The position numbers and the translations under genes were made by a program. A stretch of 53,084 bases of DNA from contig PS015366.1 in NCBI GenBank assembly GCA_048213135.1, positions 54,486-107,569 on the forward strand, written 5' to 3'. The stretch is from Reclinomonas americana ATCC 50394. Its lineage: Eukaryota. The notes beneath the pieces were generated by a model. It made no database searches. It was not told where the DNA came from and saw only the letters and a list, made by a program, of their open reading frames with translations. Each line of letters starts with the position of its first letter. The first letter of the stretch is position 1. Shown here piece by piece: positions 6,346-53,084 of this stretch.

Positions 6346-7449
6346 TTACAAGTGCAGCTCAGGGTCTACGCGACATTGATGCATCACGACTTCAGCGTCC
6401 TCCACAATGAAGCATCGCAGTACCATCTCCGGCAGGCAGCGCGAATCCGCCACGTCCTCGTCTCCTGCATCTTGCATCTCCTGAACCGCGTGCATGGCCT
6501 CGAGCGCTTTGACGAGCTCGAGGCGAGCAAGACCACACGGAGTGCTCCACACACGCACAGTGTAGTCATAGCCGCCGCTCACTACTTGCTGCCCGTCGGG
6601 TGTGATGGCGACAGAGCACACTCCCAAAGAGTGTCCCTCCAGTCGTAGCACTTCCTTGTCACCTGCCAGTGACCACACTCGCACCGTACGGTCGTCACTC
6701 ACACTCACAATGTGCTGACAGTTGGGCGTGACGGCGACAGAAAACACGTAGTCACTGTGCCCCTCCAACCATCTCACGTTTTCTCCAGTCGGCATCGACG
6801 ACACACGCAGTATATCGTCAAACTCGCTTCCACAACTCACAATGTGCTGGCCGTCGGGGGTAATGGCGACGGAGTGCACCGAATCAGTGTGCCCCAGCAG
6901 TCGTCGCACCTCCTCGCCACTCGCCAGTGACCACATCCGCACCGTACGGTCCTCACTCCCACTCACAACATGCTGGCCATCGGGAGTGACGGCGACGGAG
7001 TATACCCATCCATTGTGACCCTTCAACAGTTGCGTCTCCCTGCCACTCGCCAGCGACCACACACGCACCGTCTGGTCAAGACTCCCACTCACAACGTGCT
7101 GACCGCTCGGAGTGATGGCAACAGAGGTCACGCATCCAGTGTGTCCATCAAACCGTCGCACTTCCTCGCCACTCGCCAGTGACCACACAAGTACCTGATT
7201 ATCACCACCTCCGCTCACTACATGCTGCCCGTCGGGTGTAATGGCGACAGAACGCGCTTCCGAAGAGTGTCCCTCCATCCGTCGCACCTCCTCTCCACTC
7301 ACGAGTGACCACACTCGCACTGTGCAGTCTCTGTTGCCACTCACAACATGCAGGCCATCGGGAGTGACGGCGACAGACATCACCATGGCAGTGTGTCCTC
7401 GCAGCACGTGCTTGCACAGGAAGAGAGGACGAAGGGCAGTAGCTGACAT
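6346..7449 (-). CDS. WD40 array gene A1 (7 WD40 repeats + conserved tail), intronless
   Basis: ATG of MSATALRPLF shared with A2/A3; seven GH...WS repeats; tail LPEMVLRCFIVEDAEVV. Confidence 0.9.
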   Translation of the reverse strand: MSATALRPLFLCKHVLRGHTAMVMSVAVTPDGLHVVSGNRDCTVRVWSLVSGEEVRRMEGHSSEARSVAITPDGQHVVSGGGDNQVLVWSLASGEEVRRFDGHTGCVTSVAITPSGQHVVSGSLDQTVRVWSLASGRETQLLKGHNGWVYSVAVTPDGQHVVSGSEDRTVRMWSLASGEEVRRLLGHTDSVHSVAITPDGQHIVSCGSEFDDILRVSSMPTGENVRWLEGHSDYVFSVAVTPNCQHIVSVSDDRTVRVWSLAGDKEVLRLEGHSLGVCSVAITPDGQQVVSGGYDYTVRVWSTPCGLARLELVKALEAMHAVQEMQDAGDEDVADSRCLPEMVLRCFIVEDAEVVMHQCRVDPELHL

Positions 7450-7649
7450 GCTTGTGAGGAGGAGAAGAAAATGAAGGGGTGTTCCTGTGCGCGTGAGTGA
7501 CCGGATGAGAGTGTGAGAGGATCGACGTCTCTGACAATATTCTTCGTTCGCGCTCTGCAGGTCCATGGAGGCATTTACTGCACCTCGGGGAGAGGGAGGT
7601 GGAAAGAGAGAGGGACATAAACAAGGGAGTACGAGCACAAGCAAGCGGG

Positions 7650-8738
7650 TTACAAGTGCAATTCCGGATCTGCAAGACAGCGATGCACCACGACTTCAGC
7701 CTCCTCCGCAAGGAAACATCGGAGAACCATCTCTGGCAGGCAGCGCAAACCCCGCACGTCTCCTGCATCCTGCATCTCCTGCACCGCGTGCATGGCCTCG
7801 CGTGCTTTGTTGAGCTCGTTCCGAGCAAGGCCACATGGAGTGCTCCACACACGCACACTATTGTCGTGGCTGCCACTCACGATGCGCTGTCCATCAGGAG
7901 TGACGGCGACAGACGACACCACATCACTGTGTCCCTCCAGTCGTCGCACCTGTCTACCGCTCGCCAGAGACCACACACGTACGGTCCTGTCTCCGCCCCC
8001 ACCCACGATGTGCAGCTCATCTGGAGTGACGGCAACACAAGATACATATTCAGTGTGGCCCTCCAGCCGTTGCACTTCCTCCCCATTCTCCAGTGACCAC
8101 ACTCGCACTGTCTTATCGTACCCTGCACTCACGACGTGTCGACCAGTTGGTGCGACGGCAACACAAAACACCCATGCAGCATGGCCCTCCAACCGTCTCA
8201 CCTCTTCTCCACTTTCCAGTGACCATATCCGCACTTTGTGGTCCTCACCCCCACTCGCAACAAGCTGACCATCAGCAGTGACGGTCACACCGCTCACTGC
8301 TGCAGTGTGCTCCAACCGTCGCACTTCAGCCCCACTCGAGAGCGACCACACTCGCACTGTCTTGTCATCGCTTCCACTTACAATGTACTGACTATCGCAA
8401 GTGACGGCAATGGAGAGCACCAGTCCATCGTGTCCCTCCAGCCGCCGCACTTCTTCTCCAGTCGCCAGAGACCACACTCGCACTGTGTAGTCCCAGCTGC
8501 CACTCACCACGTGATGACCATCGAGAGTGATGGCGACAGAGAATACCGCGCTGGTGTGTCCCTCCATCCGTCGCACCTCCTCTCCACTCACCAGTGACCA
8601 CACTCGCACAGTGTTGTCCCAGCTCCCACTCACAACATGCAGGCCATCGGGAGTGACAGCAACTGAACACACCAAGTCTGTGTGCCCTTGCAGCACGTGC
8701 TGGCAGAGGAAGAGAGGACGAAGGGCAGTGGCTGACAT
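7650..8738 (-). CDS. WD40 array gene A2, intronless
   Basis: MSATALRPLF start, 7 repeats, same tail. Confidence 0.9.
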   Translation of the reverse strand: MSATALRPLFLCQHVLQGHTDLVCSVAVTPDGLHVVSGSWDNTVRVWSLVSGEEVRRMEGHTSAVFSVAITLDGHHVVSGSWDYTVRVWSLATGEEVRRLEGHDGLVLSIAVTCDSQYIVSGSDDKTVRVWSLSSGAEVRRLEHTAAVSGVTVTADGQLVASGGEDHKVRIWSLESGEEVRRLEGHAAWVFCVAVAPTGRHVVSAGYDKTVRVWSLENGEEVQRLEGHTEYVSCVAVTPDELHIVGGGGDRTVRVWSLASGRQVRRLEGHSDVVSSVAVTPDGQRIVSGSHDNSVRVWSTPCGLARNELNKAREAMHAVQEMQDAGDVRGLRCLPEMVLRCFLAEEAEVVVHRCLADPELHL

Positions 8739-8932: not shown

Positions 8933-10045
8933 CTACTGCGGGGTAAGAAGCAGGCGTCGCTCAGGATCTACGTGCCAGCGATGCACCACGACTTCAGCCT
9001 CCTCCACAATAAAGCATCGCAGTACCATCTCTGGCAGGCAGCGCGAGTCCAGCAAGGCCTCGTCTCCTGCATCCTGCATCTCTTGCACTGCGCTCATGGC
9101 CTCACGTGCTTTGACAAGCTCGTTCCGAGCAAACACGAACGGCGTACACCACACCCACGCATTGTGGTCATGGCACCCACTGACAATGTGCTGCCCGTCG
9201 GGAGTGACGGCGACAGACGACACCGAGTCAGTGTGTCCCTTCAGCTGCTGCACCTCCTCGCCACTTGCCAGTGACCACACTCGTACCGACTCGTCCGCAC
9301 TCCCACTCACTACGTGCTGACCATCGGGTGTGATGGCGACAGTGGTCACCCGGCCTGCGTGCCCCACAAGCCGCTGCACTTCCTCTCCAGTCGCCATCGA
9401 CCACACGCGCACTGTGCTGTCAACACCTCCACTCACTGCGTACTGACCATCAGGTGTGACGGCGACAGCTCGAACTGTTTCAGTGTGTCCCTCCAACCGT
9501 CTCACTTCCTCGCCACTCGCCAGTGACCACACACGCACTGTTTCGTCTCCACTACCACTCACAATGTACTGGCCATCGGGAGTAACAGTGACACACCACA
9601 CCGGCTTTGTGTGTCCCTTGAAACATCGCTCCTCCTCGCCACTCGCCAGTGACCACACACGCACTGTCTGGTCAAGACTCCCACTCGCAATGTGTTGACC
9701 GTGGGGAGAGACGGCGACAGAAAGCACCACCGCAGAGTGCCCTTCCAACCGCCGCACTTCCTCGCCACTCGCCAGTGACCACACGCGCACTTGGCAGTCG
9801 CTGCACCCGGTCACAATGTGCTGCCCGTCAGGGGTGACAGCGACAGAGTACACCCATCCTGCGTGTCCCACAATCCGTCGCACCTCCTCTCCACTCACCA
9901 GTGACCACATTCGTACTGTGGCGTCGTGACTCCCACTCACGACGTGCTGCCTGTCAGGAGTGACAGCAACACAGAGAACGCGGTTTGTGTGTCCAAGCAG
10001 TACGTGCTTGCAGAGGAAGAGAGGATGACGGGCAGTGGCTGACAT
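8933..10045 (-). CDS. WD40 array gene A3, intronless
   Basis: MSATARHPLF start, 7 repeats, same tail. Confidence 0.9.
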   Translation of the reverse strand: MSATARHPLFLCKHVLLGHTNRVLCVAVTPDRQHVVSGSHDATVRMWSLVSGEEVRRIVGHAGWVYSVAVTPDGQHIVTGCSDCQVRVWSLASGEEVRRLEGHSAVVLSVAVSPHGQHIASGSLDQTVRVWSLASGEEERCFKGHTKPVWCVTVTPDGQYIVSGSGDETVRVWSLASGEEVRRLEGHTETVRAVAVTPDGQYAVSGGVDSTVRVWSMATGEEVQRLVGHAGRVTTVAITPDGQHVVSGSADESVRVWSLASGEEVQQLKGHTDSVSSVAVTPDGQHIVSGCHDHNAWVWCTPFVFARNELVKAREAMSAVQEMQDAGDEALLDSRCLPEMVLRCFIVEEAEVVVHRWHVDPERRLLLTPQ

Positions 10046-10273: not shown

Positions 10274-11371
10274 TCAGAGGTGCAGCTCAGGGTCTACGCG
10301 ACATCGATGCACCACGACTTCGGCCTCCTCCACAATGAAGCATCGCAACACCATCTCTGGCAGGAAGAGCGAATCCAGCACGCCTTCGTCTTCTGCATCC
10401 TGCATCTCTTGCACTGCGCTCATGGCCTCGCGTGCTTTGTTGAGCTCGTTCCGAGCAAGACCACACGGAGTGCTCCACACACGCACTGTCTCGTCAAAGC
10501 TGCCACTGACGATGCGCTGCCCGTCGGGAGTGATGGCAACAGACAACACCGAGTCAGTGTGTCCCTCCAGCCGCTGCAACTCCTCGCCACTCGCCAGAGA
10601 CCACACCCGCACTGTACGGTCGTCACTCCCACTCACCACGTGTTGACCATCGGGTGTGATGGTGACGGACTCCACTGCCTCAGTGTGACCCTCCAACCGT
10701 CGCACTTGTTCTCCATTCTCCAGTGACCACACTCGCACTGTCTTATCGTACGCCCCACTCACGACATGCCGACCATCGGGCGAGACAACGACAGAGCGCA
10801 CCCCACCAGTGTGTCCCCCCAGCTGCTGCACCTCCTCACCAGTTGCCAGCGACCACACCCGCACCGTCTTGTCAGAAGAACCACTCACAACGTGGCGACC
10901 ATCGGGAGTGACAACAACACTGCGCACCCACTTTCTGTGCCCCTCCAGCCGTCGCACCTCCGCGCCACTCGCCAGCGACCACACACGCACAGTCTTGTCA
11001 TGACTGCCACTCACCACATGCTGCCCGTCGGGCGCAACAGCAACAGCATACACAAAGGCAGTGTGCCCCTCCATGCGCCGCATCTCCTCACCACTCGCCA
11101 GCGACCACACGCGCACAGTCTCATCATCATTCCCGCTCACAACATGCTGCCCATCAGGCGTGATAGCAACAGCCCACACACGACCTGTGAACTCCTCCAT
11201 GCGCTGCACCTCTTCTCCTCCACCACGCACCAGTGACCACACGCGCACTGTGCTGTCCCAGCTCCCACTTGCAATGTGCAGGCCTTCGACGGAGACAGCA
11301 ACAGATTGCACAGCATATGCGTGTCCCACAAGCACATGCTTGCAGAGGAAGAGACGAGGGGGAAGAGTCAT
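10274..11371 (-). CDS. WD40 array gene A4, intronless
   Basis: MTLPPRLFLCKHVL start, 7 repeats, same tail. Confidence 0.9.
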   Translation of the reverse strand: MTLPPRLFLCKHVLVGHAYAVQSVAVSVEGLHIASGSWDSTVRVWSLVRGGGEEVQRMEEFTGRVWAVAITPDGQHVVSGNDDETVRVWSLASGEEMRRMEGHTAFVYAVAVAPDGQHVVSGSHDKTVRVWSLASGAEVRRLEGHRKWVRSVVVTPDGRHVVSGSSDKTVRVWSLATGEEVQQLGGHTGGVRSVVVSPDGRHVVSGAYDKTVRVWSLENGEQVRRLEGHTEAVESVTITPDGQHVVSGSDDRTVRVWSLASGEELQRLEGHTDSVLSVAITPDGQRIVSGSFDETVRVWSTPCGLARNELNKAREAMSAVQEMQDAEDEGVLDSLFLPEMVLRCFIVEEAEVVVHRCRVDPELHL

Positions 11372-20352: not shown

Positions 20353-21459
20353 ATGCTTACGAAGGTGCGCCACGCGTGATTCTCTTTCGTTGTCGCTGGT
20401 GCGTCTCACCACAGGTGGGTGGCGCAGATCTTCAAGGGACACACCTCTAACGTGATGTCTGTCGCCATCACTCCCGATGGCCGACACATCGTCAGTGGCA
20501 GCATTGACCGCACAGTGCGTGTGTGGTCACTGACGAGTAGAAAGAAGGAGCGGCGGCTGGCAAGACACACTGGAGGGCTGAACTCGATTGCTGTCACTCC
20601 CGATGGTCGCCACATCGTGAGCGGCAGTGATGACATGACCGTGCGAGTGTGGTCACTGGCGACTGGCAAGGAGGTGCGACGGTTGGAGGGGCACACTTGG
20701 GGGTTGTGGTCTGTTGTCGCCACTCCCGATAGCTCGCACGTGGTCAGCGGAAGCTCTGACAAGACAATACGAGTGTGGTCTGTGGCGACTGGCGCAGAAG
20801 TGCAAAGGTTGGAGGGGCACTCGGCCACGGTGTTCTCGGTCGCCGTCACCCCCGACGGTCTGCACGTTGTGAGCAGCAGCGCTGATAAAACCGTGCGACT
20901 ATGGTCACTGGCAACCGGCGAGGAGATGCGACGGTTCAAGGGACACACGAAGAATGTGTTATCTGTCGCCGTCGCTCCCGATGGTCAGCATGTAGTGAGC
21001 GGGAGTTACGACATGACGATTCGCGTGTGGTCACTTGCGAGTGGTGAGGAGGTGCGGGGATTGGTGGGGCACACTGACACAGTGGCTTCTGTCGCCGTCA
21101 CACCCGATGGTCAGTTTGTCGTGAGCGGGAGTTACGACAAGACTGTGCGAGTGTGGTCACTGGCCAGTGGCGCGGAGGTGCGACGACTGGAGGGACATAC
21201 CGAGTGGGTGGCGTCTGTCGCTGTCGGTGCAGATGGCCATCATATCGTGAGTGGAGGCGGAGACGAGACGATACGAATGTGGTCCACGGCACGTGCCCTT
21301 GCCAGACAGGAGCTCGCGGTCGCACGGTTGGCTGTGCAAGCCGTCAACGAGCTGCTGATTGACGAGGATGACCGCGATTGGATCCTGGTCGACGTCGCTC
21401 TGCGTTGTTTCGTGCTGGAGGATGCAGAGCTGGTGGAGGGTCGCGCACCTGGGTGGTAG
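20353..21459 (+). CDS. WD40 array gene B1 (12-nt first exon MLTK, intron 20365-20427, 7 WD40 + tail)
   Basis: ATGCTTACGAAG|GTGCGC...GCGCAG|ATCTTCAAGGGACAC; tail WILVDVALRCFVLEDAELVEGRAPGW. Confidence 0.9.
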
Positions 21460-22337: not shown

Positions 22338-22823
22338 ACTCCCGATGGTCAACATGTCGTGAGCGTGAGTCAGGACATGACGATTCGCGTGTGGTCACTT
22401 GCGAGTGGTGAGGAGGTGCGGGGGTTGGTGGGACACACTGACGCAGTGGCTTCTGTCGCCGTCACCGCAGATAGTAAGTTTGTCGTGAGTGGTAGTGATG
22501 ACATGACAGTGCGAGTGTGGTCACTGGCCAGTGGCGCGGAGGTGCGACGACTGGAGGGACACACCGAGTGGGTGTCGTCTGTCGCCGTAACCCCCGATGG
22601 TCAGCACATCGTGAGTGGAGACGGTGACGACACGATACGAGTGTGGTCCACGGCGCGTGGATTGGCATGGCAGGAGCTTGCAGCCGCGCGCTCGGCTGTG
22701 CAGGCCATCAACGAGCTCCTTGTTGACGAGGATGATCGCGACTGGATCCTGGTGGATGTCGTGCTGCGGTGTTTCGTGCTGGAGGATGCAGAGGTGGTGG
22801 AGGGTCGTGCGCCTGGGTGGTAG
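22338..22823 (+). CDS. WD40 array gene B2 (3' part only; 5' in gap)
   Basis: Last ~2.5 repeats plus tail. Confidence 0.75.
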   Translation, partial: TPDGQHVVSVSQDMTIRVWSLASGEEVRGLVGHTDAVASVAVTADSKFVVSGSDDMTVRVWSLASGAEVRRLEGHTEWVSSVAVTPDGQHIVSGDGDDTIRVWSTARGLAWQELAAARSAVQAINELLVDEDDRDWILVDVVLRCFVLEDAEVVEGRAPGW

Positions 22824-23227: not shown

Positions 23228-23720
23228 TCCCGATGGTCAACATGTCGTGAGCGTGAGTCAGGACATGACGATTCGCGTGTGGTCACTTGCGAGTGGTGAG
23301 GAGGTGCGGGGGTTGGTGGGACACACTGACGCAGTGGCTTCTGTCGCCGTCACCGCAGATAGTAAGTTTGTCGTGAGTGGTAGTGATGACATGACAGTGC
23401 GAGTGTGGTCACTGGCCAGTGGCGCGGAGGTGCGACGACTGGAGGGACACACCGAGTGGGTGGCGTCTGTCGCTGTCACTGCAGATGGCCAGCACATCGT
23501 GAGTGGAGCCGGAGATGGCACGATACGTGTGTGGTCCACGGCGCGTGCCCTTGCCGGACAGGAGGTCGTGGTCGCGCGATTTGTTATACAGGCCGTCAAT
23601 GAGCTCCTTGTTGACGAGGATGATCGCGACTGGATCCTGGTCGACGTCGCTCTGCGTTGTTTCGTGCTGGAGGATGCAGAGGTGGTGGAGCGTCGGGCCC
23701 CGGGGTGGCATGAAGCGTGA
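23228..23720 (+). CDS. WD40 array gene B3 (3' part only; 5' in gap)
   Basis: Last ~2.5 repeats plus tail ending GWHEA*; first ~235 nt identical to B2. Confidence 0.75.
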
Positions 23721-23947: not shown

Positions 23948-25057
23948 ATGATCACCGAGGTGCGTGCGTGTGCAGCACCCTACTCGTCTGTTCCCGGTGC
24001 GTCTCACCGCTGGCGGGTGGCGCAGATCTTCAAGGGACACACTGCTGATGTGATGTCTGTCGCCGTCACTCCCGATGGTCGGTACATCGTCAGCGGCAGC
24101 AATGACCACACAGTGCGTGTGTGGTCACTGGTAAGTGGGGAAGAGGTGTGGCGGCTGGAAGGACACACTGACTCGGTGAATTCCATCGCCGTCACTCCCG
24201 ACGGTCAGCGCATTGTCAGCGGTAGTGATGACGGCACTTTACGTGTGTGGTCATCGACGAGTGGCAAGGAGGTGCACCGGTTGGAAGAACACACTGGCAT
24301 GGTGTTCTGTGTTGCCACCGCTCCCGATAGTTCACACGTGGTGAGCGGGAGCTATGACGAGACAGTGCGACTGTTGTCACTGGCAACTGGCGAGGAAGTG
24401 CAACGATATGAGGGACACGCAGGAATCGTGTTGTGTGTCACCGTCACTCCCGATGGTAAGCACATTGTGAGCGGGGGTGACGACGAAACGGTGCGACTTT
24501 GGTCACTGGCGAGTGGTGAGGAAGTGCGACGGTATGAGGGACACACAAGCTGGGCGTCGTCTGTCGCCGTCACTCCCAATGGTCAGCAGATTGTGAGCGG
24601 CGGCGGCGACAAAACAGTGCGAGTGTGGTCTCTGACAAGCGGGGAAGAAGTTCTGCGACTGGAAGGACACGTTGGAGCGTTGTCGTCTGTCGCCGTCACA
24701 CCTGATGGTCAGTTTGTCGCGAGTGGGAGTTACGACAAGACTGTGCGAGTGTGGTCACTGGTGAGTGGCGAGGAGGTGCGGCGACTGGAGGGGCACACTA
24801 TGTGGATATTCTCTGTTGCCGTAACCCCCGATGGTCAGCATATCGTGAGTGGAGACGGTGACGACACGATACGAGTGTGGTCCACACTGCGTGGGCTTGC
24901 CCAGCAGGAGCTCGTGGTTGCGTGGTCGGCTGTGCAGGCCATCAACGAGCTCCTTGTTGACGAGGATGATCGCGACTGGATCCTGGTGGATGTCGTGCTG
25001 CGGTGTTTCGTGCTGGAGGATGCAGAGGTGGTGGAGGGTCGTGCGCCTGGGTGGTAG
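23948..25057 (+). CDS. WD40 array gene B4 (MITE exon; intron 23960-24025)
   Basis: Same architecture as B1. Confidence 0.9.
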   Translation: MITEVRACAAPYSSVPGASHRWRVAQIFKGHTADVMSVAVTPDGRYIVSGSNDHTVRVWSLVSGEEVWRLEGHTDSVNSIAVTPDGQRIVSGSDDGTLRVWSSTSGKEVHRLEEHTGMVFCVATAPDSSHVVSGSYDETVRLLSLATGEEVQRYEGHAGIVLCVTVTPDGKHIVSGGDDETVRLWSLASGEEVRRYEGHTSWASSVAVTPNGQQIVSGGGDKTVRVWSLTSGEEVLRLEGHVGALSSVAVTPDGQFVASGSYDKTVRVWSLVSGEEVRRLEGHTMWIFSVAVTPDGQHIVSGDGDDTIRVWSTLRGLAQQELVVAWSAVQAINELLVDEDDRDWILVDVVLRCFVLEDAEVVEGRAPGW

Positions 25058-40795: not shown

Positions 40796-41917
40796 TCACC
40801 AACCAGGGGCCCGACGCTGCACCAACTCTGCATCCTCCAACACAAAGCACCGCAGAACGACATCCACCAGGATCCAGTCATGATCATCGTCGACGAGCAG
40901 CTCATTGATGGCCTGCACGGCCAACCGTGCGACCACGACCTCCTGTCCAGCAAGGGCACGCGCCGTGGACCACACTCGTATCGTGCCATCTCCGTCTCCA
41001 CTCACAATGCGCTGGCCATCGGGGGTGATGGCAACAGACGGCACCCAGTCGGTGTGTCCTTCTAGTCGTCGCACCTCCTCACCACTGGCCAGCGTCCACA
41101 ATCGCACGGTCGTGTCGCCACTGCCACTCACAACAAATTGACCGTCGGGTGTGACGGCGACAGACTGCACCTCTTCAGTGTGCCCCTCCATCCGGCGCAC
41201 TTCCTCACCGGTGGCCAGTGACCACACTCGCACTGTCTTGTCCTCGCCCCCACTCACTATATGCTGGCCATCGGGAGTGACGGTGACAGCATACACTATA
41301 CCTGTGTGCCCCACGCATCGTCGCACTTCCTCGCCAGTGGCGAGTGACCACAGTCGCACGGTCTTGTCAGCGCTGCCAGTGACAACGTGCTGACCATCGG
41401 GGGTGATGGCGACCGAGTACACGGTGCCAGTGTGCCCCTCAAGACGTCGCACCTCCTCGCCAGTCGCCAGTGACCACACTCGTATCGTCCAGTCAAAGCC
41501 CCCGCTCACCGCGTGCGAGCTATCGGGAGTGACGACGACAGACAGCACGTATGCCATACCAGTGTGCTCTTCCAATCGGTGTACTTCCTCGCCACTCGTC
41601 AATGACCACACTCGCACTGTCTCGTCATCACTGCTGCTTACAATGTGCTCACCATCGGGCGTGACGGCGACCGAGTTCACACCTCCAGTGTGTCCTTCCA
41701 AGAGTCGCACTTCCGCGCCACTCGTCAGAGACCACACACGCACTGTGTAGTCGTTGCTGCCGCTGATTATGTGCCCACCATCGGGAGTGACGGCGACAGA
41801 CAACACCCAAGAAGTGTGCCCCTTCAGAATCTGCGCCCGTGCACTTGTGGTGAGACGCACCAGGAACAGACAAGAAGGGTGCCACACGCACACTCACACA
41901 CGCACCTTCGAGATCAT
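40796..41917 (-). CDS. WD40 array gene C1 (MISK exon + intron + 7 WD40 + tail)
   Basis: Same family as B, opposite strand. Confidence 0.9.
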
Positions 41918-42220: not shown

Positions 42221-43350
42221 TTATGCTTCACGCCACCCAGGGGCCCGACGCTGCACCAACTCTGCATCCTCCAGCACAAAGCACCGCAGAACGACATCCA
42301 CCAGGATCCAGTCATGATCATCGTCGACGAGCAGCTCATTGATGGCCTGCACGGCCAACCGTGCGACCACGACCTCCTGTCCAGCAAGGGCACGCGCCGT
42401 GGACCACACTCGTATCGTGCGATCTGCGCCTCCACTCACGATATGCTGGCCATCGGGGGTGATGGCAACAGACGGCACCCACTCGGTGTGTCCCTCCAGT
42501 TGTCGCACCTCCTCGCCACCGGCCAGTGACCACACCCGCACTGTCTTGTCATCACCACCACTCACAACAAATTGACCGTCTGGAGTAATGGCCACAGAAT
42601 AGACCTCATCAGCGTGACCCTCCAGCCGTCGCTCCTCCTCACCGGTGGCCAGTGACCACATTCGCACTGTTTTGTCCTCGCCCCCACTCACAATGTGCTG
42701 GCCATCGGGAGTGATGGCGACGGCATGCACTATACCTGTGTGCCCCACGCATCGTCGCACTTCCTCGCCAGTGGCGAGTGACCACAGTCGCACCGTCTTG
42801 TCAGCGCTGCCACTGACAGCGTGCAAACCGTCGGGGGTGACGGCAACAGACCACACCGTGTAAGTGTGCCCCTCAAGACGTCGCACCTCCTCACCAGTCG
42901 CCAGTGACCACACTCGTATTGTCTTGTCATCGCCCCCGCTCACCACGTGCGAACTATCGGGAGTGACGGCGACGCAGAACACCGTTCCATCGTGTCCTTC
43001 TAACACATGCACTTCCTCGCCAGTTGCCAGCGACCACACTCGCACGGAACTGTCATCACTGCCGCTCACAATGTGCTCACCATCGGGCGTCGGGGCGACT
43101 GAGTTCACACATTCTGTGTGTCCTTTCAGCCGCCACACCTCGCAGCCACTGGCTACACACCACACTCGTACTGTGTCGTCGTAACTGCCACTCACAACGT
43201 GCTGACCATCGGGAGTGACGGTGACAGACAGCACGCTGAAAGTGTGTCCCTTCAGAATCTGCGCCCGTGCACTGGCGGTGAGATGCACCGAGAGCAGGCA
43301 ACAAGGCGCCACCAGCACACACACACACACACACGCACCTTTGTGATCAT
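42221..43350 (-). CDS. WD40 array gene C2
   Basis: MITK|intron|ILKGH..., 7 repeats, tail ...GWREA*. Confidence 0.9.
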
Positions 43351-43681: not shown

Positions 43682-44767
43682 TTACCAACCAGGGGCACGG
43701 TGTTCAATCACCTTTGCATCCTCCAACACAAAACACCGCAGAACAACATCCACCAGGATCCAATCGCGATCATCCTCGTCAATCAGCAACTCATTGATGG
43801 CCTGCACGGCCAACCGTGCGACAGCAAGCTCCTTCCTGGCAAGTGCACGCGCCGTGGACCACACTCGTATCGTGCGATCTGCGCCTCCACTCACGATATG
43901 CTGGCCATCGGGGGTGATGGCAACAGACGGCACCCACTCGGCGTGTCCCTCCAGTCGTCGCACCTCCTCACCACTCGCCAGCGTCCACAATCGCACGGTC
44001 GTGTCGCCACTGCCACTCACAACAAATTGACCGTCGGGTGTGACGGCGACAGACTGCACCTCTTCAGTGTGCCCCTCCAGCCGTCGCTCCTCCTCACCGG
44101 TGGCCAGTGACCACACTCGCACTGTCTTGTCCTCGCCCCCACTCACTATATGCTGGCCATCGGGAGTGACGGTGACAGCATACACTATACCTGTGTGCCC
44201 CACGCATCGTCGCACTTCCTCGCCAGTGGCGAGTGACCACAGTCGCACGGTCTTGTCAGCGCTGCCAGTGACAACGTGCAGACCGTCGGGGGTGATGGCG
44301 ACCGAGTACACGGTGCCAGTGAATCCTTCAAGACGTCGCACCTCCTCGCCACTCGCCAGTGACCACACTCGCACTTGGTCGCGGTAGCCCCCGCTCACCA
44401 CGTGCGAACTATCGGGAGTGGTGGCAACACAGAACACCATTCCATCGTGTCCCATCCGCCGTCGCACCCTCTCCCCACTCGCCAGTGACCACACTCGCAC
44501 AGTTCTGTCATCACTGCCGCTCACAATGTGCTCACTATCGGGCGTGACGGCGACCGAGTGCACACCTCTACTGTGTCCTTCCAAGAGTCGCACCTCTTCG
44601 CCGCTCGCCAGCAACCACACTCGTATTGTGTTGTCGTAACCGCCGCTCACAATGTGCCGACCGTCGGGAGTGACGGCGACAGACAACACCCAAGAAGTGT
44701 GTCCCTTCAGAATCTGCGCCCGTGCACTGGCGGTGAGATGCACCGGGAGCAGGCAACAAGGCGCCAC

Positions 44768-44821
<54 letters not shown>

Positions 44822-44831
44822 TCGTGATCAT
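43682..44831 (-). CDS. WD40 array gene C3
   Basis: MITK exon; intron with (GT)n expansion; 7 repeats + tail. Confidence 0.9.
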
Positions 44832-45184: not shown

Positions 45185-46301
45185 TTATGCTTCACGCCAC
45201 CCAGGGGCCCGACGCTGTACCAACTCTGCATCCTCCAGCACAAAGCACCGCAGAACGACATCCACCAGGATCCAGTCATGATCATCGTCGACGAGCAGCT
45301 CATTGATGGCCTGCACGGCCAACCGTGCGACCACGACCTCCTGTCCAGCAAGGGCACGCGCCGTGGACCACACTCGTATCGTGCGATCTGCGCCTCCACT
45401 CACGATATGTTGGCCATCGGGGGTGATGGCAACAGACGGCACCCACTTGGTGTGTCCTTCCAGTCGTCGCACCTCCTCGCCACCGGCCAGTGACCACACC
45501 CGCACTGTCTTGTCATCACCACCACTCACAACAAATTGACCGTCTGGAGTAATGGCCACAGACTGCACCTCATCAGCATGACCCTCCAGCCGTCGCTCCT
45601 CCTCACCGGTGGCCAGAGACCAAACTCGCACCATTTCGTCGTCACCGCCGCTCACAATGTGTTTACCATTGGGAGAGACGGCGACAGACAACACATTTCC
45701 AGCGTGTCCCTCATATCGTCGCACTTCCTCGCCAGTTGCCAGCGACCACAGTCGCACGATCCCGTCGTCACCCCCACTGACAACGTGCTGGCCATCGGGG
45801 GTGACGGCGACCGCGAACACGGTGCCGGTGCGTCCCCCCAATCGTCGCACCTCCTCGCCAGTCGCCAGTGACCACACTCGTATCGTCTCGTCATAGCTCC
45901 CGCTCACCGCGTGCGAGCTATCGGGAGTGGTGGCAACACAGAACACCATTCCAGCGTGTTCTTCCAAAAGGTGCACTTCCTTGCCAGTTGCCAGCGACCA
46001 CACACGTACAGTTCTGTCATCACTACCGCTGACAAGGTGCTGGCCATCGGGAGTGACGGCGATGGAATTCACCACACTGGCGTGCGCCTCCAGTCGCTGC
46101 ACCTCGTCGTCACTGGCTAAACATCGCATTCGTATTGTATTGTCGTAGGCGCTGCTCACAATGTGCCGACCATCGGGAGTGACGGTGACAGAGGTCACAG
46201 CAGCAGAGTGCCCCTTGAAGACCTGCACCTGCGGTGAGACGCACCAGGAACAGACAAGAAGGGTGCCACACGCACACTCACACACGCACCTTCGTGATCA
46301 T
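45185..46301 (-). CDS. WD40 array gene C4
   Basis: MITK exon; 7 repeats + tail. Confidence 0.9.
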
Positions 46302-46599: not shown

Positions 46600-47731
46600 T
46601 CATGCTTCACGCCACCCAGGAGCTCGACGCTGCACCACCTCTGCATCCTCCACCAAGAAACACCGCAGAACGACATCCACCAGGATCCAATCGCGATCAT
46701 CCTCGTCAACAAGGAGCTCATTGATGGCCTGCACAGCCGACCGTGCGACCGCGAGCTCCTGTCCGGCAAGTGCACGCGCCGTGGACCACACTCGAATCGT
46801 GCGATCTCCGCCGCCACTCACAATGTGCTGGCCATCGGGAGTTACAACAACAGACGACACCCCAGAAGTGTGTCCTTCCAGTCGTCGCACCTCCGCGCCG
46901 TCGGCAAGTGACCACACTCGCACTGTCTTGTCATCACCACCACTCACAACAAATTGACCGTCGGGTGTGACGGCGACAGAATACACCTCTCCAGTGTCTC
47001 CTTCCAGCAGTCGCTCCTCCTCACCGGTGGCCAGAGACCACAACCGAATCGTCATGTCCACGCCCCCACTCACAATGTGCTGACCATCGGGAGTGACGGC
47101 GATAGACAACACATAGTCAGTGTGCCCCACGCATCGTCGCACCTCCTCGCCAGTGGCCAGCGACCACAGTCGCACGGTCTCGTCTTCACCCCCACTGACA
47201 ACGTGCAGACCGTCAGGGGTGACGGCGACCGAGTACACGGTGCCAGTGTGCCCCTCAAGACGTCGCACCTCCTCGCCACTCGCCAGTGACCACACTCGTA
47301 TTGTCTTGTCAAAGCTCCCACTAACCGCGTGTGAACTATCGGGAGTGACGGCGACACAGAACACCAATCCATCGTGTCCCTCCAACCGTTGCACTTCCTC
47401 GCCACTCGCCAATGACCACATTCGCACTGTCTCGTCATCACTGCCGCTCACAATGTGCTCACCGTCGGGAGTGACAGCGACCGAGCTCACACCTCCAGTG
47501 AGTCCTTCCAGCCGCCGTGATTCCTCGCCACTTGTCAGAGACCACACACGCACTGTGTTGTCGTTGCTGCCACTGACGATGTGCAGGCCATCGGGGGAGA
47601 CGGCGACAGACAACACCCAAGAAGTGTGCCCCTTCAGAATCTGCGCGCCCCGTGCACTTGCGGTGAGATGCACCGGGAGTAGGCAACAAGGCGCCACCAG
47701 CACACACACACACACACACCTTTGTGATCAT
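46600..47731 (-). CDS. WD40 array gene C5
   Basis: MITK exon; 7 repeats + tail. Confidence 0.9.
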
Positions 47732-48080: not shown

Positions 48081-49198
48081 TCATGCTTCACGCCACCCAG
48101 GAGCCCGACGTTGCACCACCTCTGCATCCTCCAGCACGAAGCACCGCAGCACGACATCCACAAGGATCCAGTCGCGATCATCATCGTCAACAACAAGGAG
48201 CTCGTTGATGGCCTGCACGGCCGAACGCGCGACAGCAAGCTCCTGTCTGGCAAGGGCACGTGCCGTGGACCACATTCGTATCGTCTCGTCCCCGCCTCCA
48301 CTCACGATATGATGGCCATCTGCAGTGACAGCGACAGACGACACCCACTTGGTGTGTCTTTCCAGTCGTCGCACCTCCTCACCACTCGCCAGTGACCACA
48401 CCCGCACTGTCTTGTCATCACCACCACTCACAACAAATTGACCGTCGGGTGTGACGGCGACAGACTGCACCTCATCAGCATGACCCTCCAGCCGTCGCTC
48501 CTCCTCACCGGTGGCCAGTGACCAAACTCGCACCGTTTCGTCGTCACCGCCGCTCACAATATGCTGGCCATCGGGAGTGATGGCGACAGCATGCACTATA
48601 CTTGTGTGCCGCACGTATCGTCGCACTATCTCGCCAGTGGCGAGTGACCACAGTCGCACCGTCTTGTCAGCGCTGCCACTGACATCGTGCAAACCGTCGG
48701 GGGTGACGGCGACCGCGAACACGGTGCCGGTGCGTCCCCCCAATCGTCGCACCTCCTCGCCAGTCGCCAGTGACCACACTCGTATTGTCTTGTCATAGCC
48801 CCCGCTCACCACGTGCGAACTATCGGGAGTGACAGCGACACAGAACACCGTTCCATCGTGTCCTACTAACACATGCACTTCCTCGCCAGTCGCCAGTGAC
48901 CACACTCGCACAGTTCTGTCATCACCGCCGCTCACAATGTGCTCACTGTCGGGAGTGACAGCGACCGAGTTCACACGTCCAATGTGTCCTTCCAAGAGTC
49001 GCACTTCCGCGCCACTCGTCAGAGACCACACACGCACTGTGTTGTCGTTGCTGCCACTGACGATGTGCAGGCCATCGGGGGAGACGGCGACAGACAACAC
49101 ATTAGCAGTGTGTCCCTTGAAGATCTGCGCCACTCGCCTGTGGTGAGATGCACAAGGAGCAGGCGAAATTAGTGCAGCGCTCGCACCTTCGTAAGCAT
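48081..49198 (-). CDS. WD40 array gene C6
   Basis: MLTK exon; 7 repeats + tail. Confidence 0.9.
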
Positions 49199-49498: not shown

Positions 49499-50563
49499 CT
49501 ACCACCTGGGCGCACGCCGCTGCACCACCTCTGCGTCCTCCAGCACAAAACACCGCAGCACGACGTCCACAAGGATCCAGTCGCGATCATCGTTGATGAG
49601 GAGCACGTTGATGGCCTGCACGGCCGAACGCGTGGCCGCAAGCTCCTGCCACGCCAGTCCACGCACCGTGGACCACACACGTATCGTGCCATCTCCGTCT
49701 CCACTCACAATGCGCTGGCCATTGGGAATAACAACAACAGATGACACCCAGGTAGTGTGTCCTTCCAGTCGTCGCATCTCTTCGCCGTCGGCAAGTGACC
49801 ACACTCGCACAATCTTGTCATCACCACCACTCACAACACATTCACCATCAGGTGTGATTGCCACACACTGCACCTCTCCAGTGTCCCCTTCAAGCCGCCG
49901 CTCCTCCTCACCGGTGGCCAGAGACCACAACCGAATCGTCATGTCCACGCCCCCACTCACAATGTGCTGACCATCGAGAGTGACGGTGACACACAACACG
50001 GTTCCCGCGTGTCCCTCAAGCCGTCGCACCTCCTCGCCAGTGGCCAGCGACCACAGTCGCACGGTCTCGTCCCGACCCCCACTGACAACGTGCTGGCCAT
50101 CGGGGGTGACGGCGACCGAGAACACGGTGCCGGTGCGTCCCCCCAATCGTCGCACCTCCTCGCCAGTCGCCAGTGACCACACTCGTGTTGTCTTGTCAGA
50201 GCTTCCGCTCACCACGTGCGAACCATCGGGAGTGGTGGCAACACAGAACACCAATCCATCGTGTCCCTCCAACCGTCGCACTTCCTCGCCACTCGCCAAT
50301 GACCACACTCGCACTGTCTCGTCATCACCGCCGCTCACAATGTGCTCACCATCGGGAGTGACAGCGACCGAGTTCACACCTCCAGTGTGTCCTTCCAAGA
50401 GTCGCACTTCCGCGCCACTCGTCAGAGACCACACACGCACTGTGTAGTCGTTGCTGCCACTGACGAGGTGCAGGCCATCGGGGGAGATGGCGACAGAGTT
50501 CACAACAGCTGTGTGTCCCTTGAAAATCTGCGCCGCCCGCCAGCGGTGAGATAAAAAGGGTAG

Positions 50564-50601
<38 letters not shown>

Positions 50602-50625
50602 GCACGCACGCACCTCCGAACGCAT
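49499..50625 (-). CDS. WD40 array gene C7
   Basis: MRSE exon (ATGCGTTCGGAG|GTGCGT); 7 repeats + tail. Confidence 0.88.
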
Positions 50626-50929
50626 TCTGATCGCGCGTGTGTGAATGTGTATTATGTCGAGAAATGATTTGCTCGCGAACGTCACCCCTCGCGCCATTTC
50701 TCTCCCCTGCCCGAGCTGCAGCCGCTTTGACATCCAGCACCTGATCTTACGTGGACGAGAATGTAGATGAGTGCATCTTGGCAGGCTGACACGACATCTA
50801 TCGTCTCGGAACAATGATACATTTAGCAATATACACTTCACTTGACCCTCGTTTGCAATTGACTCAACTGACGCTGGGGGCGCGCAGCCTTCGCGTGGCG
50901 CGGGGGCCAGCAACAGGCGACACCTTCTA

Positions 50930-52069
50930 TCATGCTTCACGCCACCCAGGGGCCCGACGCTGTACCACCGCTGCATCCTCCAGCACAAAACACCGCAGTA
51001 CGACATCCACCAGGATCCAGTCGCGATCATCGTCGACGAGCAGCTCATTGATGGCCTGCACAGCCGACCGTGCGACCGCGACCTCCTGCCACGCCAGTCC
51101 ACGCTCTGTGGACCACACTCGTATCGTGCCATCTCCGTCTCCACTCACAATGCGCTGGCCATTGGGAAAAACAACAACAGATGACACCCACTCGGTGTGT
51201 CCTTTCAGTCGTCGCACCTCCTCACCACTCGCCAGTGACCACACCCGCACTGTCTTGTCATCACTTCCACTCACAACAAACTGAGTGTCGGGAGTAATGG
51301 CCACAGACTGCACATCTCCAGCATGACCCTCCAGCCGTCGCTCCTCCTCACCGGTGGCCAGTGACCACACTCGCACTGTCTTGTCCTCGCCCCCACTCAC
51401 AATATGCTGGCCATCGGGAGTGACGGCGACAGACAACACATTTCCAGCGTGTCCCTCATATCGTCGCACCTCCTCGCCATTTATCAGTGACCACAGTCGC
51501 ACGGTCTCGTCTTCACCCCCACTGACAACGTGCTGGCCATCAGGGGTGACGGCGACAGAGAATACGGTGCCAGTGCGTCCCCCCAATCGTCTCACCTCCT
51601 CGCCAGTCGCCAGTGACCACACTCGTATCGTCATGTCAAAGCTTCCGCTCACCACGTGCGAACTATCGGGAGTGACGACGACGCAGAACACCAACCCATC
51701 GTGTCCTTCCAACACATGCACTTCCTTTCCAGTCGCCAGCGACCACACACGTACAGAACTGTCCTCACTGCCGCTCACAATGTGCTCACCGTCGGGAGTG
51801 ACGGCGACTGAATTCACACATTCTGTGTATCCTTTCAGCCGCCACACCTCGCCGCCACTGGCTACACACCACACTCGTACTGTGTCGTCGTAACTGCCAC
51901 TCACAACGTGCTGACCATCGGGAGTGACGGCGACAGACAGCACGCTGAAAGTGTGTCCCTTCAGAATCTGCGCCCGCGCACTGGCGGTGAGATGCACCAG
52001 GAGCAGGCAACAAGGCGCCACCAGCACACACACACAAACACACACACACGCACGCACCTTCGTGATCAT
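50930..52069 (-). CDS. WD40 array gene C8
   Basis: MITK exon; 7 repeats + tail. Confidence 0.9.
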   Translation of the reverse strand: MITKVRACVCVCVCVLVAPCCLLLVHLTASARAQILKGHTFSVLSVAVTPDGQHVVSGSYDDTVRVWCVASGGEVWRLKGYTECVNSVAVTPDGEHIVSGSEDSSVRVWSLATGKEVHVLEGHDGLVFCVVVTPDSSHVVSGSFDMTIRVWSLATGEEVRRLGGRTGTVFSVAVTPDGQHVVSGGEDETVRLWSLINGEEVRRYEGHAGNVLSVAVTPDGQHIVSGGEDKTVRVWSLATGEEERRLEGHAGDVQSVAITPDTQFVVSGSDDKTVRVWSLASGEEVRRLKGHTEWVSSVVVFPNGQRIVSGDGDGTIRVWSTERGLAWQEVAVARSAVQAINELLVDDDRDWILVDVVLRCFVLEDAAVVQRRAPGWREA

Positions 52070-52384
52070 CCTGTATTCGCGGATATGCGTGTGCTACGTG
52101 TGTGTGTGTGAAAGACAGAGAGTGCATCGGACTCGCATTGTCTCCTCACATCTCGCGCCATTTTCTTTCGCCATGCAAGCTGCAGCCACGTTAACTGCCG
52201 CACACGTTCATACGTGGACGTGAATGTAGATGAGTGCATCTTTGCAGGCTGACACGACATCTGTCGTCTCGGAACAATGATACATTGTAACACTTCTTGA
52301 CCCTCGAGCTCGCTTGACTCAACTGACGCTGGGGGCGCGCAGCCTTCGCGTGGCGCGGGGGCCAGCAACAGGCGACACCTTCTA

Positions 52385-53084
52385 TTATACTTCACGCCAC
52401 CCAGGGGCCCGACGCTGCACCACCTCTGCGTCCTCTAGCACGAAGCACCGCAGCACGACATCCACCAGGATCCAATCGCGATCATCCTCGTCAACAAGGA
52501 GCTCATTGATGGCCTGCACAGCCGACCGTGCTACCGAGAGCTCCTGTTCGGCGAGCCCGCGCGCCGTGAACCACATGCGCACCATCTTGTCTCGACCACC
52601 ACTCGCAATGTGCTGACCAGCGGGAGTGACGGCGACAGAATTCACCACGTCCGTGCACCCGTCCAGTCGTCGCACCTCCTCACCACTCGACAGTGACCAC
52701 AGTCGCAACGTCTTGTCATCACTGCCACTGACGACAAACTGACCGTCGGGTGTGGTGGCGACAGAATACACTGCATTAGTGTGCCCCTCCAGCCGTCGCA
52801 CCTCCTCACCGGTGGCCAGTGACCACACTCGAATCGTCATATCTTCGCCTCCACTCACAATCTGCTGACCATTGGGAGAGACGGCGACAGACAACACGTT
52901 CGCAGCGTGTCCCTGACACCGTCGCACCTCCTCGCCAGTGGCCAGTGACCACAGTCGCACGGTCTCGTCCCGACTGCTACTCACAATGTGCTGGCCGTCA
53001 GGGGTGACGGCGACTGCGAACACGGTGCCAGTGTGCCCCTCCAATCGTCGCACCTCTTCGCCTGTGGCCAGTGACCACACACGC
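52385..53084 (-). CDS. WD40 array gene C9 (3' part; runs off the window)
   Basis: Last 4 repeats + tail ...GWREV*. Confidence 0.85.
   Translation of the reverse strand, partial: RVWSLATGEEVRRLEGHTGTVFAVAVTPDGQHIVSSSRDETVRLWSLATGEEVRRCQGHAANVLSVAVSPNGQQIVSGGEDMTIRVWSLATGEEVRRLEGHTNAVYSVATTPDGQFVVSGSDDKTLRLWSLSSGEEVRRLDGCTDVVNSVAVTPAGQHIASGGRDKMVRMWFTARGLAEQELSVARSAVQAINELLVDEDDRDWILVDVVLRCFVLEDAEVVQRRAPGWREV

What the first reader, a model, noticed from the sequence alone, without database searches (positions are those of the whole stretch)
6346..53084. Repertoire of at least 21 tandem single-propeller WD40 genes: candidate variable-receptor system
Seen: three arrays (A 6346-11371 x4; B 20353-30707 x8; C 40796-53084 x9+). 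Each gene is ~345-370 aa with exactly seven highly self-similar 42-aa repeats (LEGHTxxVxSVAVTPDGQHxVSGxxDxTVRVWSLAxGEEVRR) and one conserved tail. All 18 complete copies are free of stops and frameshifts. Known: 42-aa high-internal-conservation WD40 repeats are the recognition domain of fungal HNWD NLRs (Podospora HET-D/E/R). Here there is no NACHT or HET domain; the propellers are stand-alone. Inference: a clustered, diversified family of cytosolic sensors or adaptors, e.g. protist innate immunity or non-self recognition. I do not recognise this architecture as a described family.
Basis: partly seen in the sequence, partly recalled or inferred. Interest (0 to 1): 0.85.

Follow-up and report, generated by a model that had tools for sequence, protein, structure and literature searches.

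The report
Tandem WD40 propeller gene family, protist
A little-sampled protist carries at least 21 neighbouring genes for small seven-bladed WD40 proteins that share a previously undescribed tail and differ mainly on their binding face, which looks like a set of binding adaptors, but no role in immunity is shown.

Summary
The window has 21 WD40 genes in three arrays (A x4 minus, B x8 plus, C x9 minus, the last cut by the window end). Each complete copy has seven 42-aa blades plus a 58-72-aa tail, and all 18 complete copies are open. B/C copies need a conserved 12-nt first exon and a 62-106-nt intron.

The genes lie among intron-bearing housekeeping genes of a draft eukaryotic assembly. The tail is a two-helix orphan domain. 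A profile of it found 3 proteins among 1.84 billion, one an EST of the jakobid Reclinomonas americana.

Scaffold and tail are under purifying selection (dN/dS 0.25-0.33 and 0.18). Five positions per blade are hypervariable. Three of them are the canonical top-face contact positions R1-2, R1 and D-1. They change at about the synonymous rate, so positive selection is borderline. Paralogs exchange patches by gene conversion.

The likeness to fungal HNWD sensors is partial. The variable positions are the same, but blade identity is 61% rather than 80-100%, there is no intragenic concerted evolution and blade number is fixed.

My reading is a lineage-restricted repertoire of binding adaptors joined to a common partner through the tail. 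An immune role is untested.

The parts
6346..7449 (-). A1, A-type WD40 + tail gene, intronless (367 aa from the conserved MSAT start)
   Evidence: upstream in-frame ATGs are probably UTR (non-3n indels)
7650..8738 (-). A2, A-type gene (362 aa)
8933..10045 (-). A3, A-type gene (370 aa; tail 5 aa longer)
10274..11371 (-). A4, A-type gene (365 aa); modelled
   Evidence: pLDDT 89.3; 7 blades; tail helices 302-325 and 337-359
20353..21459 (+). B1: exon 1 at 20353-20364, 63-nt intron, exon 2 from 20428
22338..22823 (+). B2, 3' part only (161 aa); 5' part lies in N run 21497-22337
23229..23720 (+). B3, 3' part only (163 aa); 5' part lies in N run 22861-23227
23948..25057 (+). B4 (12-nt exon 1, 66-nt intron)
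25363..26478 (+). B5 (12-nt exon 1, 66-nt intron)
26776..27884 (+). B6 (12-nt exon 1, 62-nt intron)
28174..29280 (+). B7 (12-nt exon 1, 63-nt intron)
29589..30707 (+). B8 (12-nt exon 1, 66-nt intron)
40796..41917 (-). C1 (12-nt exon 1, 75-nt intron)
42221..43350 (-). C2 (12-nt exon 1, 80-nt intron)
43682..44831 (-). C3 (12-nt exon 1, 106-nt intron with a long TG run)
45185..46301 (-). C4 (12-nt exon 1, 67-nt intron)
46600..47731 (-). C5 (12-nt exon 1, 79-nt intron)
48081..49198 (-). C6 (12-nt exon 1, 62-nt intron)
49499..50625 (-). C7 (12-nt exon 1, 86-nt intron)
50930..52069 (-). C8 (12-nt exon 1, 90-nt intron); modelled
   Evidence: pLDDT 92.3; tail helices 288-309 and 318-338
52385..53084 (-). 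C9, 3' part (232 aa); runs off the window end, so the array may continue

Best explanation
This is a lineage-restricted multigene family of small, probably cytosolic, seven-bladed WD40 propeller proteins. Each carries a family-specific C-terminal domain of about 60 aa made of two helices. The family grew by whole-gene tandem duplication from an ancestor whose seven blades were nearly identical. It split into an intronless A subfamily and a B/C subfamily that has a 12-nt first exon. Selection keeps the propeller scaffold and the tail. Amino-acid change is concentrated at five positions per blade (35 per protein) on the top, ligand-binding face. Paralogs swap patches by gene conversion. Inferred mechanism: each paralog shows a different top-face binding surface on a constant, stable scaffold, and the shared tail plugs all of them into one common partner or complex. 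That makes the family a repertoire of adaptors or receptors with different ligand specificities. Shown: gene structure, copy number, selection pattern, location of variability, mosaicism, rarity of the tail, and a transcript of a relative. Inferred: that the top face binds ligands, that the tail docks a common partner, and the cytosolic location. Unknown: the ligands and the physiological role.
For: There are 21 copies and 18 of 18 complete ones are open. The start and splice signals are conserved in 14 of 14 complete B/C copies. Pairwise NG86 over 91 B/C pairs gives dN/dS 0.25 for the scaffold and 0.18 for the tail. Per-blade parsimony counts give 0.33 for the scaffold. Among 134 blades, entropy exceeds 2.8 bits only at repeat positions 6, 7, 9, 25 and 27, and scaffold positions are mostly below 1.2 bits. 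Positions 7, 9 and 25 are R1-2, R1 and D-1, the residues generally used for top-face binding (passages of PMC3419727). In both models they fall in the D-A loop, at the start of strand A, and in the B-C turn (DSSP). These sites take 2.97 non-synonymous changes per site against 0.76 for the scaffold. The His, Ser, Asp and Trp that I assign, by motif, to the hydrogen-bond tetrad are kept in 120-132 of 134 blades. For mosaicism, the longest identical run is 112 polymorphic sites against a permuted maximum of 46, and 21 of 91 pairs exceed the global 5% level. The tail is an orphan: no significant Pfam, PDB or Atlas match, 3 hits in 1.84 billion representatives, and none in JGI metagenomes. The R. 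americana EST P0121 spans the last blade, the tail and the stop, and is 70% identical to A4. P0122 is collinear over propeller and tail at 29% identity.
Against: There are no expression data for these copies. Positive selection is not established: at the variable sites dN/dS is 0.83 against their own dS (bootstrap CI 0.64-1.07) and 1.29 against scaffold dS (CI 1.04-1.60) in B/C, and 12 of 97 within-family pairs exceed 1. Relaxed constraint would therefore fit as well. The tail models are only moderately confident (block means of pLDDT 51-78 in A4 and 61-87 in C8), and no partner is known. The variable positions are those that vary in any repetitive WD40, so their location alone does not prove a repertoire function. 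Trees and counts are approximate because the copies recombine.
Confidence: 0.62

Rival explanations
1. The genes are a neutral or dosage-driven tandem amplification. They are real, but the paralogs are functionally redundant. The top-face positions vary only because they are unconstrained surface loops, so no repertoire of specificities exists.
For: Variable-site dN/dS against own dS is 0.83 in B/C (CI 0.64-1.07) and 0.75 in A (CI 0.59-0.95), which fits neutrality. Only 12 of 97 within-family pairs exceed 1. The same positions vary in repetitive WD40 proteins in general (recalled, and consistent with the passages).
Against: Dosage arrays are usually kept nearly identical, but here the closest pair has scaffold dS 0.19 and typical pairs 0.3-0.5. 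All 18 complete copies stay open with scaffold dN/dS 0.25-0.33 over that divergence, which argues that each copy is individually maintained. Variable-site dN relative to scaffold dS is above 1 (1.29, CI 1.04-1.60, and 1.63, CI 1.35-1.95).
Confidence: 0.2
2. One reading: an innate-immunity or non-self recognition repertoire. The proteins would be stand-alone sensors, analogous to the WD40 sensor domains of fungal HNWD NLRs but separated from any NOD module, and they would signal through the tail.
For: The variable positions are the same as in HNWD repeats. The genes are clustered and diversified with gene conversion. The family is taxonomically narrow and carries an orphan domain.
Against: There is no NACHT, HET or other death or effector domain in the genes or the window. 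Blade identity is 61%, not 80-100%. There is no intragenic concerted evolution, and blade number is fixed. There is no evidence on induction, polymorphism or cell death. The neighbours are housekeeping genes.
Confidence: 0.12
3. The apparent family is an assembly artefact or a set of decaying pseudogenes, so the real number of functional genes is far lower.
For: The assembly is a gapped draft with 10 N runs. B2 and B3 are identical for ~236 nt next to their gaps.
Against: There are 21 different tails and 3' flanks. Every pair is diverged, with minimum scaffold dS 0.19. No stop or frameshift occurs in 18 of 18 complete copies. Purifying selection acts on scaffold and tail. Splice signals are conserved.
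Confidence: 0.04

Closest known systems
WD40 sensor domains of fungal HNWD NLRs (Podospora HET-D/E/R)
   Same: Both have 42-aa WD40 units with a conserved scaffold. Variability is concentrated at a few codons on the top, interaction face. Recombination occurs among family members (passages of PMC12222747).
   Different: This family has no NACHT and no HET domain. Blades are 61% identical in protein, not 80-100%. There is no concerted evolution within a gene. It has seven blades forming one propeller rather than about 11 repeats of variable number. It has its own C-terminal two-helix tail.
Highly or moderately repetitive WD40 proteins of bacteria, fungi and protists (Hu et al. 2017, PMC5587647); structures 5yzv, 2ymu and the designer WRAP-T proteins
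   Same: These are the best structural matches (Foldseek E 1e-35 to 1e-31, 40-43% identity, rmsd 0.9-2.0 A). Internal identity is 0.48-0.61 in 18 of 18 complete copies, which falls in their 'moderately repetitive' band of 0.4-0.7. The residues I assign to the hydrogen-bond tetrad are kept in nearly every blade.
   Different: Those proteins are mostly multi-domain or multi-propeller and are not described as tandem arrays of single-propeller genes with a shared orphan tail. In this family the blades no longer homogenise: 104 of 106 B/C blades have their nearest relative at the same position in another gene.
Gcp1-3, the Pex7-related WD40 proteins that co-occur with the mitochondrial T2SS in jakobids, heteroloboseans and malawimonads (PMC8134430)
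   Same: They are lineage-restricted WD40 proteins reported from the same part of the eukaryotic tree (passages).
   Different: Gcp1-3 are described as Pex7 relatives, some with PTS1 signals. In this family no row described as Pex7 appears among the listed PDB rows to rank 50, and the tails end in other residues. Their sequences are in a supplement that I could not see, so no direct comparison was made.
Expanded substrate-receptor families built on WD40 (F-box/WD40, DCAF)
   Same: The logic is the same: a variable propeller face plus a constant docking element.
   Different: No F-box or other docking domain is detected on the tail by Pfam at E <= 10. DCAF-type propeller models appear only as weak generic hits on relatives.

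Membership tests
WD40 repeat beta-propeller (PF00400) | Repeated WD40 units that fold into a closed propeller | tested here: met
   7 PF00400 stretches in each of 4 copies scanned (E 1e-74 to 1e-83). AF2 gives seven four-stranded blades (pLDDT 89-92). Foldseek to WD40 structures gives TM up to 0.98 on the target.
Fungal HNWD / HIC-repeat NLR sensors | NACHT nucleotide-binding domain upstream of the repeats | tested here: not met
   Pfam finds only WD40-type families. The N-terminus is 4-16 aa before blade 1.
Fungal HNWD / HIC-repeat NLR sensors | N-terminal HET or other effector domain | tested here: not met
   None in the genes or in the flanking ORFs scanned.
Fungal HNWD / HIC-repeat NLR sensors | Repeat identity of 80-100% within a gene, maintained by concerted evolution (PMC12222747 passage) | tested here: not met
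   Within-gene blade identity is 61% protein and 67.6% DNA, the same as between genes. Between-blade dS is about 0.86.
Fungal HNWD / HIC-repeat NLR sensors | Variable repeat number | tested here: not met
   All 18 complete paralogs have seven blades. Variation between strains could not be tested.
Fungal HNWD / HIC-repeat NLR sensors | A few hypervariable codons per repeat on the interaction face | tested here: met
   Entropy exceeds 2.8 bits only at positions 6, 7, 9, 25 and 27. Positions 7, 9 and 25 are R1-2, R1 and D-1.
Fungal HNWD / HIC-repeat NLR sensors | Diversifying selection at those codons | tested here: inconclusive
   In B/C, dN/dS is 0.83 (CI 0.64-1.07) against own dS and 1.29 (CI 1.04-1.60) against scaffold dS. 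No likelihood site model was available.
Moderately repetitive WD40 (Hu et al. 2017) | At least six repeats with all pairwise identities between 0.4 and 0.7 | tested here: met
   0.48-0.61 in 18 of 18 complete copies, computed on the first 33 positions of each blade. Definition from the Methods passage.
Highly repetitive WD40 (Hu et al. 2017) | Internal identity of at least 0.7 | tested here: not met
   The maximum level is 0.61.
Gcp1-3 (Pex7-like, miT2SS-associated) | Specific relatedness to Pex7 and to the Gcp1-3 sequences | tested here: inconclusive
   No row described as Pex7 among the listed PDB rows to rank 50. The Gcp sequences are in a supplement that I could not see.
F-box/WD40 or DCAF substrate receptors | An F-box or another recognised ligase-docking element | tested here: not met
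   Pfam on both tail types at E <= 10 gives no F-box, SOCS or other docking family.

The most novel reading that the evidence does not exclude
A jakobid-like protist keeps a genomic repertoire of stand-alone WD40 sensors. These would be NOD-less counterparts of the fungal and bacterial NLR sensor domains. Their hypervariable top faces would recognise diverse foreign or prey-derived ligands, and the orphan two-helix tail would be a new signalling or docking domain that couples all of them to one effector.
Probability: 0.12. Interest if true: 0.8.

Novelty: new variant of a known kind. Interest (0 to 1): 0.45.

Why it matters
Jakobids and their neighbours are among the least explored eukaryotes, and almost nothing is known about how they recognise partners, prey or parasites. 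This is a compact, well-defined family: a constant scaffold, 35 variable top-face residues per protein, and a constant orphan tail. It lies in three arrays that still exchange sequence. That makes it a clean natural experiment in how binding repertoires arise from a recently amplified repeat protein. The tail is a new domain whose partner would name the pathway. If the family proved to be a recognition system, it would show that variable WD40 sensors can work without a NOD module. If not, it is still a good example of birth-and-death evolution with gene conversion in a stable consensus-like propeller, which is of interest for protein design.

Tried and rejected
The whole genome is not held, so genome-wide copy number could not be counted.

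A whole-protein search returned only generic bacterial and fungal WD40 proteins (29-59% identity) and said nothing about the family.

A tail-only search of the 5.8-billion collection at near lengths found nothing. The longer and shorter length classes were not searched there. The all-length representative search covers them only at the 50% cluster level.

The JGI metagenome scan with the tail gave 159 pattern matches, none confirmed.

Sequencing runs: none was listed, and no RNA holder was listed.

Tail homodimer prediction gave no verdict. The alignment was not used and the partner's own fold was uncertain.

The protein Atlas search on the A4 tail gave a best score of 0.76, which is below the level of a lead.

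The PDB sequence search with the tail profile gave a best E of 0.081 to a designer PPR protein, taken as chance. Pfam on the tails gave one chance-level hit (PRA-CH, E 0.15).

Earlier notes of this scan: none for this genome or sequence. A word search returned only bacterial WD40 arrays, which did not affect the reading.

Organism identity: the NUBP2-like exon matches diverse eukaryotes at only 53-67%, so no close relative is in the collection. The jakobid link rests on one EST of a family member.

I considered and rejected an F-box-like or BC-box-like reading of the tail (by eye, with no Pfam support). I also rejected an N-terminal extension of A1-A3, because the upstream in-frame ATGs lie in a region with indels that are not multiples of three.


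Full report
**Observation.** The window is a gapped draft sequence with 10 N runs totalling 5715 bases, flanked by GA/CT microsatellites. A six-frame scan finds 21 reading frames with WD40 repeats. A1-A4 lie on the minus strand (6346-11389). B1-B8 lie on the plus strand (20353-30707). C1-C9 lie on the minus strand (40796-53084). C9 runs off the window end, and the 5' parts of B2 and B3 lie in N runs. All 18 complete copies are open. Pfam reports seven PF00400 stretches in each of the four copies scanned and no other kind of domain. TRF finds the 126-bp period throughout at 67-77% matches. AlphaFold2 models of A4 and C8 are confident seven-bladed propellers (pLDDT 89.3 and 92.3, pTM 0.86). Every copy ends in a tail of 58-72 aa that aligns across all 21 copies with 11 invariant columns. 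There are two tail types: A is 38-44% identical to C8, and B/C are 79-92% identical to it.

**Gene models.** A-type genes are intronless and start at a conserved ATG 13-16 codons before the first Gly-His. A1-A3 also have in-frame upstream ATGs. The upstream region differs between copies by indels that are not multiples of three, so it is probably untranslated. In B/C-type genes many reading frames lack an in-frame ATG. This is explained by a conserved 12-nt first exon (mostly Met-Ile-Thr-Lys), a GT donor, an intron of 62-106 nt that often holds a TG microsatellite, and a CAG acceptor just before blade 1. The pattern is present in 14 of 14 complete B/C copies. In 10 of these 14 the intron cannot be read through, because of 3 stops and 7 frame shifts. 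The splice model rests on conservation only. No RNA was available.

**Context and organism.** Between A and B lies a multi-intron 5-oxoprolinase gene (Hydantoinase_A and Hydantoinase_B). Between B and C lie a Bud13 homologue, a ubiquitin-like gene and a NUBP2/Cfd1-like gene. The locus is therefore ordinary nuclear DNA of an intron-bearing eukaryote. The NUBP2-like exon is only 53-67% identical to its best matches, which come from very diverse eukaryotes. A4 as translated is not in the 15-billion-protein collection. The organism thus has no close relative there. The only named relative of the family is an EST-derived protein of the jakobid Reclinomonas americana (see "The tail" below). No whole genome is held.

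**The tail.** Pfam (E <= 10), the PDB sequence profile search and the protein Atlas give nothing credible for it. A profile of the 21 tails was scored against 1.84 billion representative proteins and found 3 proteins at E <= 0.001.
- P0121 (E 5.7e-19) is the R. americana EST product. It covers the last blade, an A-type tail and the stop, and is 70% identical to the end of A4.
- P0122 (E 2.6e-11) is an unnamed 394-aa protein. It is collinear with C8 over the whole propeller and tail at 29% identity, and its blades are not self-similar.
- P0123 (E 3.5e-4) is an unnamed 144-aa protein with only the tail in common.

A near-length search of the 5.8-billion collection and a scan of JGI metagenomes found nothing more. 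In both models the tail forms two helices with a loop between them, at moderate confidence (block means of pLDDT 51-78 in A4 and 61-87 in C8). Its dN/dS is 0.18-0.20 within subfamilies, so it is a functional, constrained part of the protein. The EST shows that the propeller-tail junction is transcribed as one message in a relative.

**Repeat anatomy.** I cut 134 blades of 42 aa from the alignment.
- Entropy exceeds 2.8 bits only at repeat positions 6, 7, 9, 25 and 27. These are the two residues after Gly-His-Thr, the residue after the next Val, and the residues on either side of the invariant Asp.
- Positions 18, 24 and 36 are intermediate. Most others are below 1.2 bits.
- By the rules in passages of Wu et al. 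2012 (PMC3419727), position 9 is R1, position 7 is R1-2 and position 25 is D-1. These are the three residues generally used for binding on the top face.
- DSSP of both models puts positions 6-7 in the D-A loop, position 9 at the start of strand A, and positions 25 and 27 in the B-C turn.
- The His, Ser, Asp and Trp that I assign, by motif, to the hydrogen-bond tetrad are kept in 120-132 of 134 blades.

**How repetitive the blades are.** Blades of one gene are 61% identical in protein and 67.6% in DNA. That is exactly the value for blades at different positions in different genes. By the criterion of Hu et al. 2017 (PMC5587647 passages) all 18 complete copies score 0.48-0.61, which is "moderately repetitive" and not "highly repetitive". 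It is far from the 80-100% reported for HNWD repeats (PMC12222747 passage). In B/C, 104 of 106 blades have their nearest relative at the same position in another gene. That subfamily therefore grew by duplication of whole seven-blade genes, without blade shuffling. In A the figure is only 10 of 28. Between A and B/C, same-position identity (68.0%) equals different-position identity. Between-blade dS is about 0.86-0.92. Blades share the same codon at 57.5% of identical residues, against 37.7% expected from family codon usage. The simplest history is an ancestor with seven near-identical blades, formed by recent internal amplification or homogenisation, around the time of the A versus B/C split. 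Independent divergence followed.

**Selection.**
- Pairwise Nei-Gojobori estimates within B/C (91 pairs) give scaffold dN/dS 0.25 (dS 0.46) and tail 0.18. The five variable positions have dN 0.57.
- No pair is near-identical. The closest, C1-C3, has scaffold dS 0.19.
- Parsimony counts on per-blade trees give 2.97 non-synonymous changes per site at the variable positions in B/C, against 0.76 for the scaffold.
- At those positions dN/dS is 0.83 against their own synonymous rate (bootstrap CI 0.64-1.07) and 1.29 against the scaffold synonymous rate (CI 1.04-1.60). In A the values are 0.75 and 1.63.
- The variable sites therefore evolve about four times faster than the scaffold, at roughly the neutral rate. 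This is compatible with weak diversifying selection or with relaxed constraint. I could not run likelihood site models.

**Mosaicism and phylogeny.** Among 14 complete B/C copies the longest run of identity over polymorphic sites is 112, against a maximum of 46 in 300 column permutations. In all, 21 of 91 pairs exceed the global 5% level. Examples are C1-C3 over blades 4-5 and C2-C4 over blade 7 plus the tail. The tail dS is 0.02 for C2-C4, although their propellers differ by 0.32. In trees, A and B/C are separate clades (support 100). C1-C8 form a clade (99) nested among B copies. Groupings change between the whole gene and its 3' half. Arrays therefore expanded or were homogenised locally, and they still exchange patches.

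**Structure comparison.** The best PDB matches of the A4 model are a thermostable prokaryotic WD40 domain (5yzv), designer consensus propellers (7big, 7bie, 7bif) and a highly repetitive cyanobacterial propeller (2ymu), at 40-43% identity. WDR5, Tup1, RACK1 and others follow at about 30%. The scaffold belongs to the consensus-like, repetitive class of WD40 proteins.

**Interpretation.** The data show real, individually maintained genes. They combine a constant, probably very stable scaffold and a constant orphan tail with 35 fast-changing residues placed where WD40 proteins bind their ligands. I infer a repertoire of adaptors or receptors. The top face gives each paralog its own specificity, and the tail connects all of them to one partner. 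This is "works like" reasoning. It shares its logic with HNWD sensors and with expanded WD40 substrate receptors, but membership of those families fails on defining features: no NACHT or HET, no HIC-level identity or concerted evolution, fixed blade number, and no F-box. The immune reading is not excluded, but nothing tested here bears on it. The main rival is neutral divergence of redundant copies. Long-term preservation of all reading frames and the dN excess over scaffold dS argue against it, but it is not excluded.

**Literature.** I searched the held library five times and found no description of this family. Six papers hold both "Reclinomonas americana" and "WD40". Of these I looked only at passages of the mitochondrial T2SS paper (PMC8134430); for the others I saw at most the search listing, and one was not listed. 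That paper's WD40 proteins, Gcp1-3, are Pex7 relatives, and their sequences are in a supplement I could not see. The search listing shows no occurrence of "WD40" in the Andalucia godoyi genome paper. I did not read it.

**Limits.** There are no expression data, no whole genome and no population data. The assembly is gapped, and B2 and B3 share an identical 236-nt stretch next to their gaps, which may be a scaffolding artefact. The selection estimates are counting methods on recombining sequences.

Noticed in passing
window 1500-1932, 3790-4714, 13908-14305, 21497-22337, 22861-23227, 31448-31758, 34155-35010, 36650-37330, 38105-38292, 38983-39697: Ten N runs of irregular length, mostly bordered by GA/CT dinucleotide runs. 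They look like scaffold gaps at microsatellites in a short-read assembly. Several lie inside introns or genes.
   Followed up: partly
window 22338-22573 and 23229-23464: B2 and B3 are identical for about 236 nt directly after their gaps and then drop to about 80% identity. This is either a very recent conversion tract or one contig end used twice in scaffolding.
   Followed up: partly
window ~14400-20200 (+): A 5-oxoprolinase gene (Hydantoinase_A and Hydantoinase_B) split into many exons by introns of a few hundred bases, some rich in CT and poly-proline-like low-complexity sequence.
   Followed up: partly
window 32122-33541 (+), ~37559-37780 (-), 38813-40663 (+): A Bud13 homologue with a repeated Arg/Pro/Ser-rich motif, a ubiquitin-like gene and a NUBP2/Cfd1-like gene sit between the convergent arrays B and C. 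The NUBP2-like exon is only 53-67% identical to any protein in the collection.
   Followed up: partly
window 37842-38103 and 38559-38850: A (GAGT)n microsatellite of about 66 units. Separately, a 141-151-bp unit is present twice in tandem (85-86% match) and overlaps the start of the NUBP2-like gene.
   Followed up: no
introns at e.g. 44714-44819 (C3), 51968-52057 (C8): The first intron of B/C genes carries a TG microsatellite whose length differs between copies (intron 62-106 nt). This explains why some copies seem to have an in-frame ATG and others do not.
   Followed up: yes
window 7450-7620, 8739-8900, 10046-10220 (-): A1-A3 have in-frame ATGs upstream of the conserved start, which would add about 39-49 Arg/Ser/Pro-rich residues. 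The region has indels that are not multiples of three, and A4 lacks it, so it is probably UTR. A targeting peptide is not strictly excluded.
   Followed up: partly
window 527-2379 (-) and 2886-3617 (+): His/Pro-rich and Glu/Arg-rich open frames with no Pfam match lie at the left end of the window. Their coding status is unclear.
   Followed up: no
window ~49400-49430 (between C6 and C7): A run of about 23 C on the gene strand lies in the spacer upstream of C6. It was not seen in the spacers printed for the other copies.
   Followed up: no
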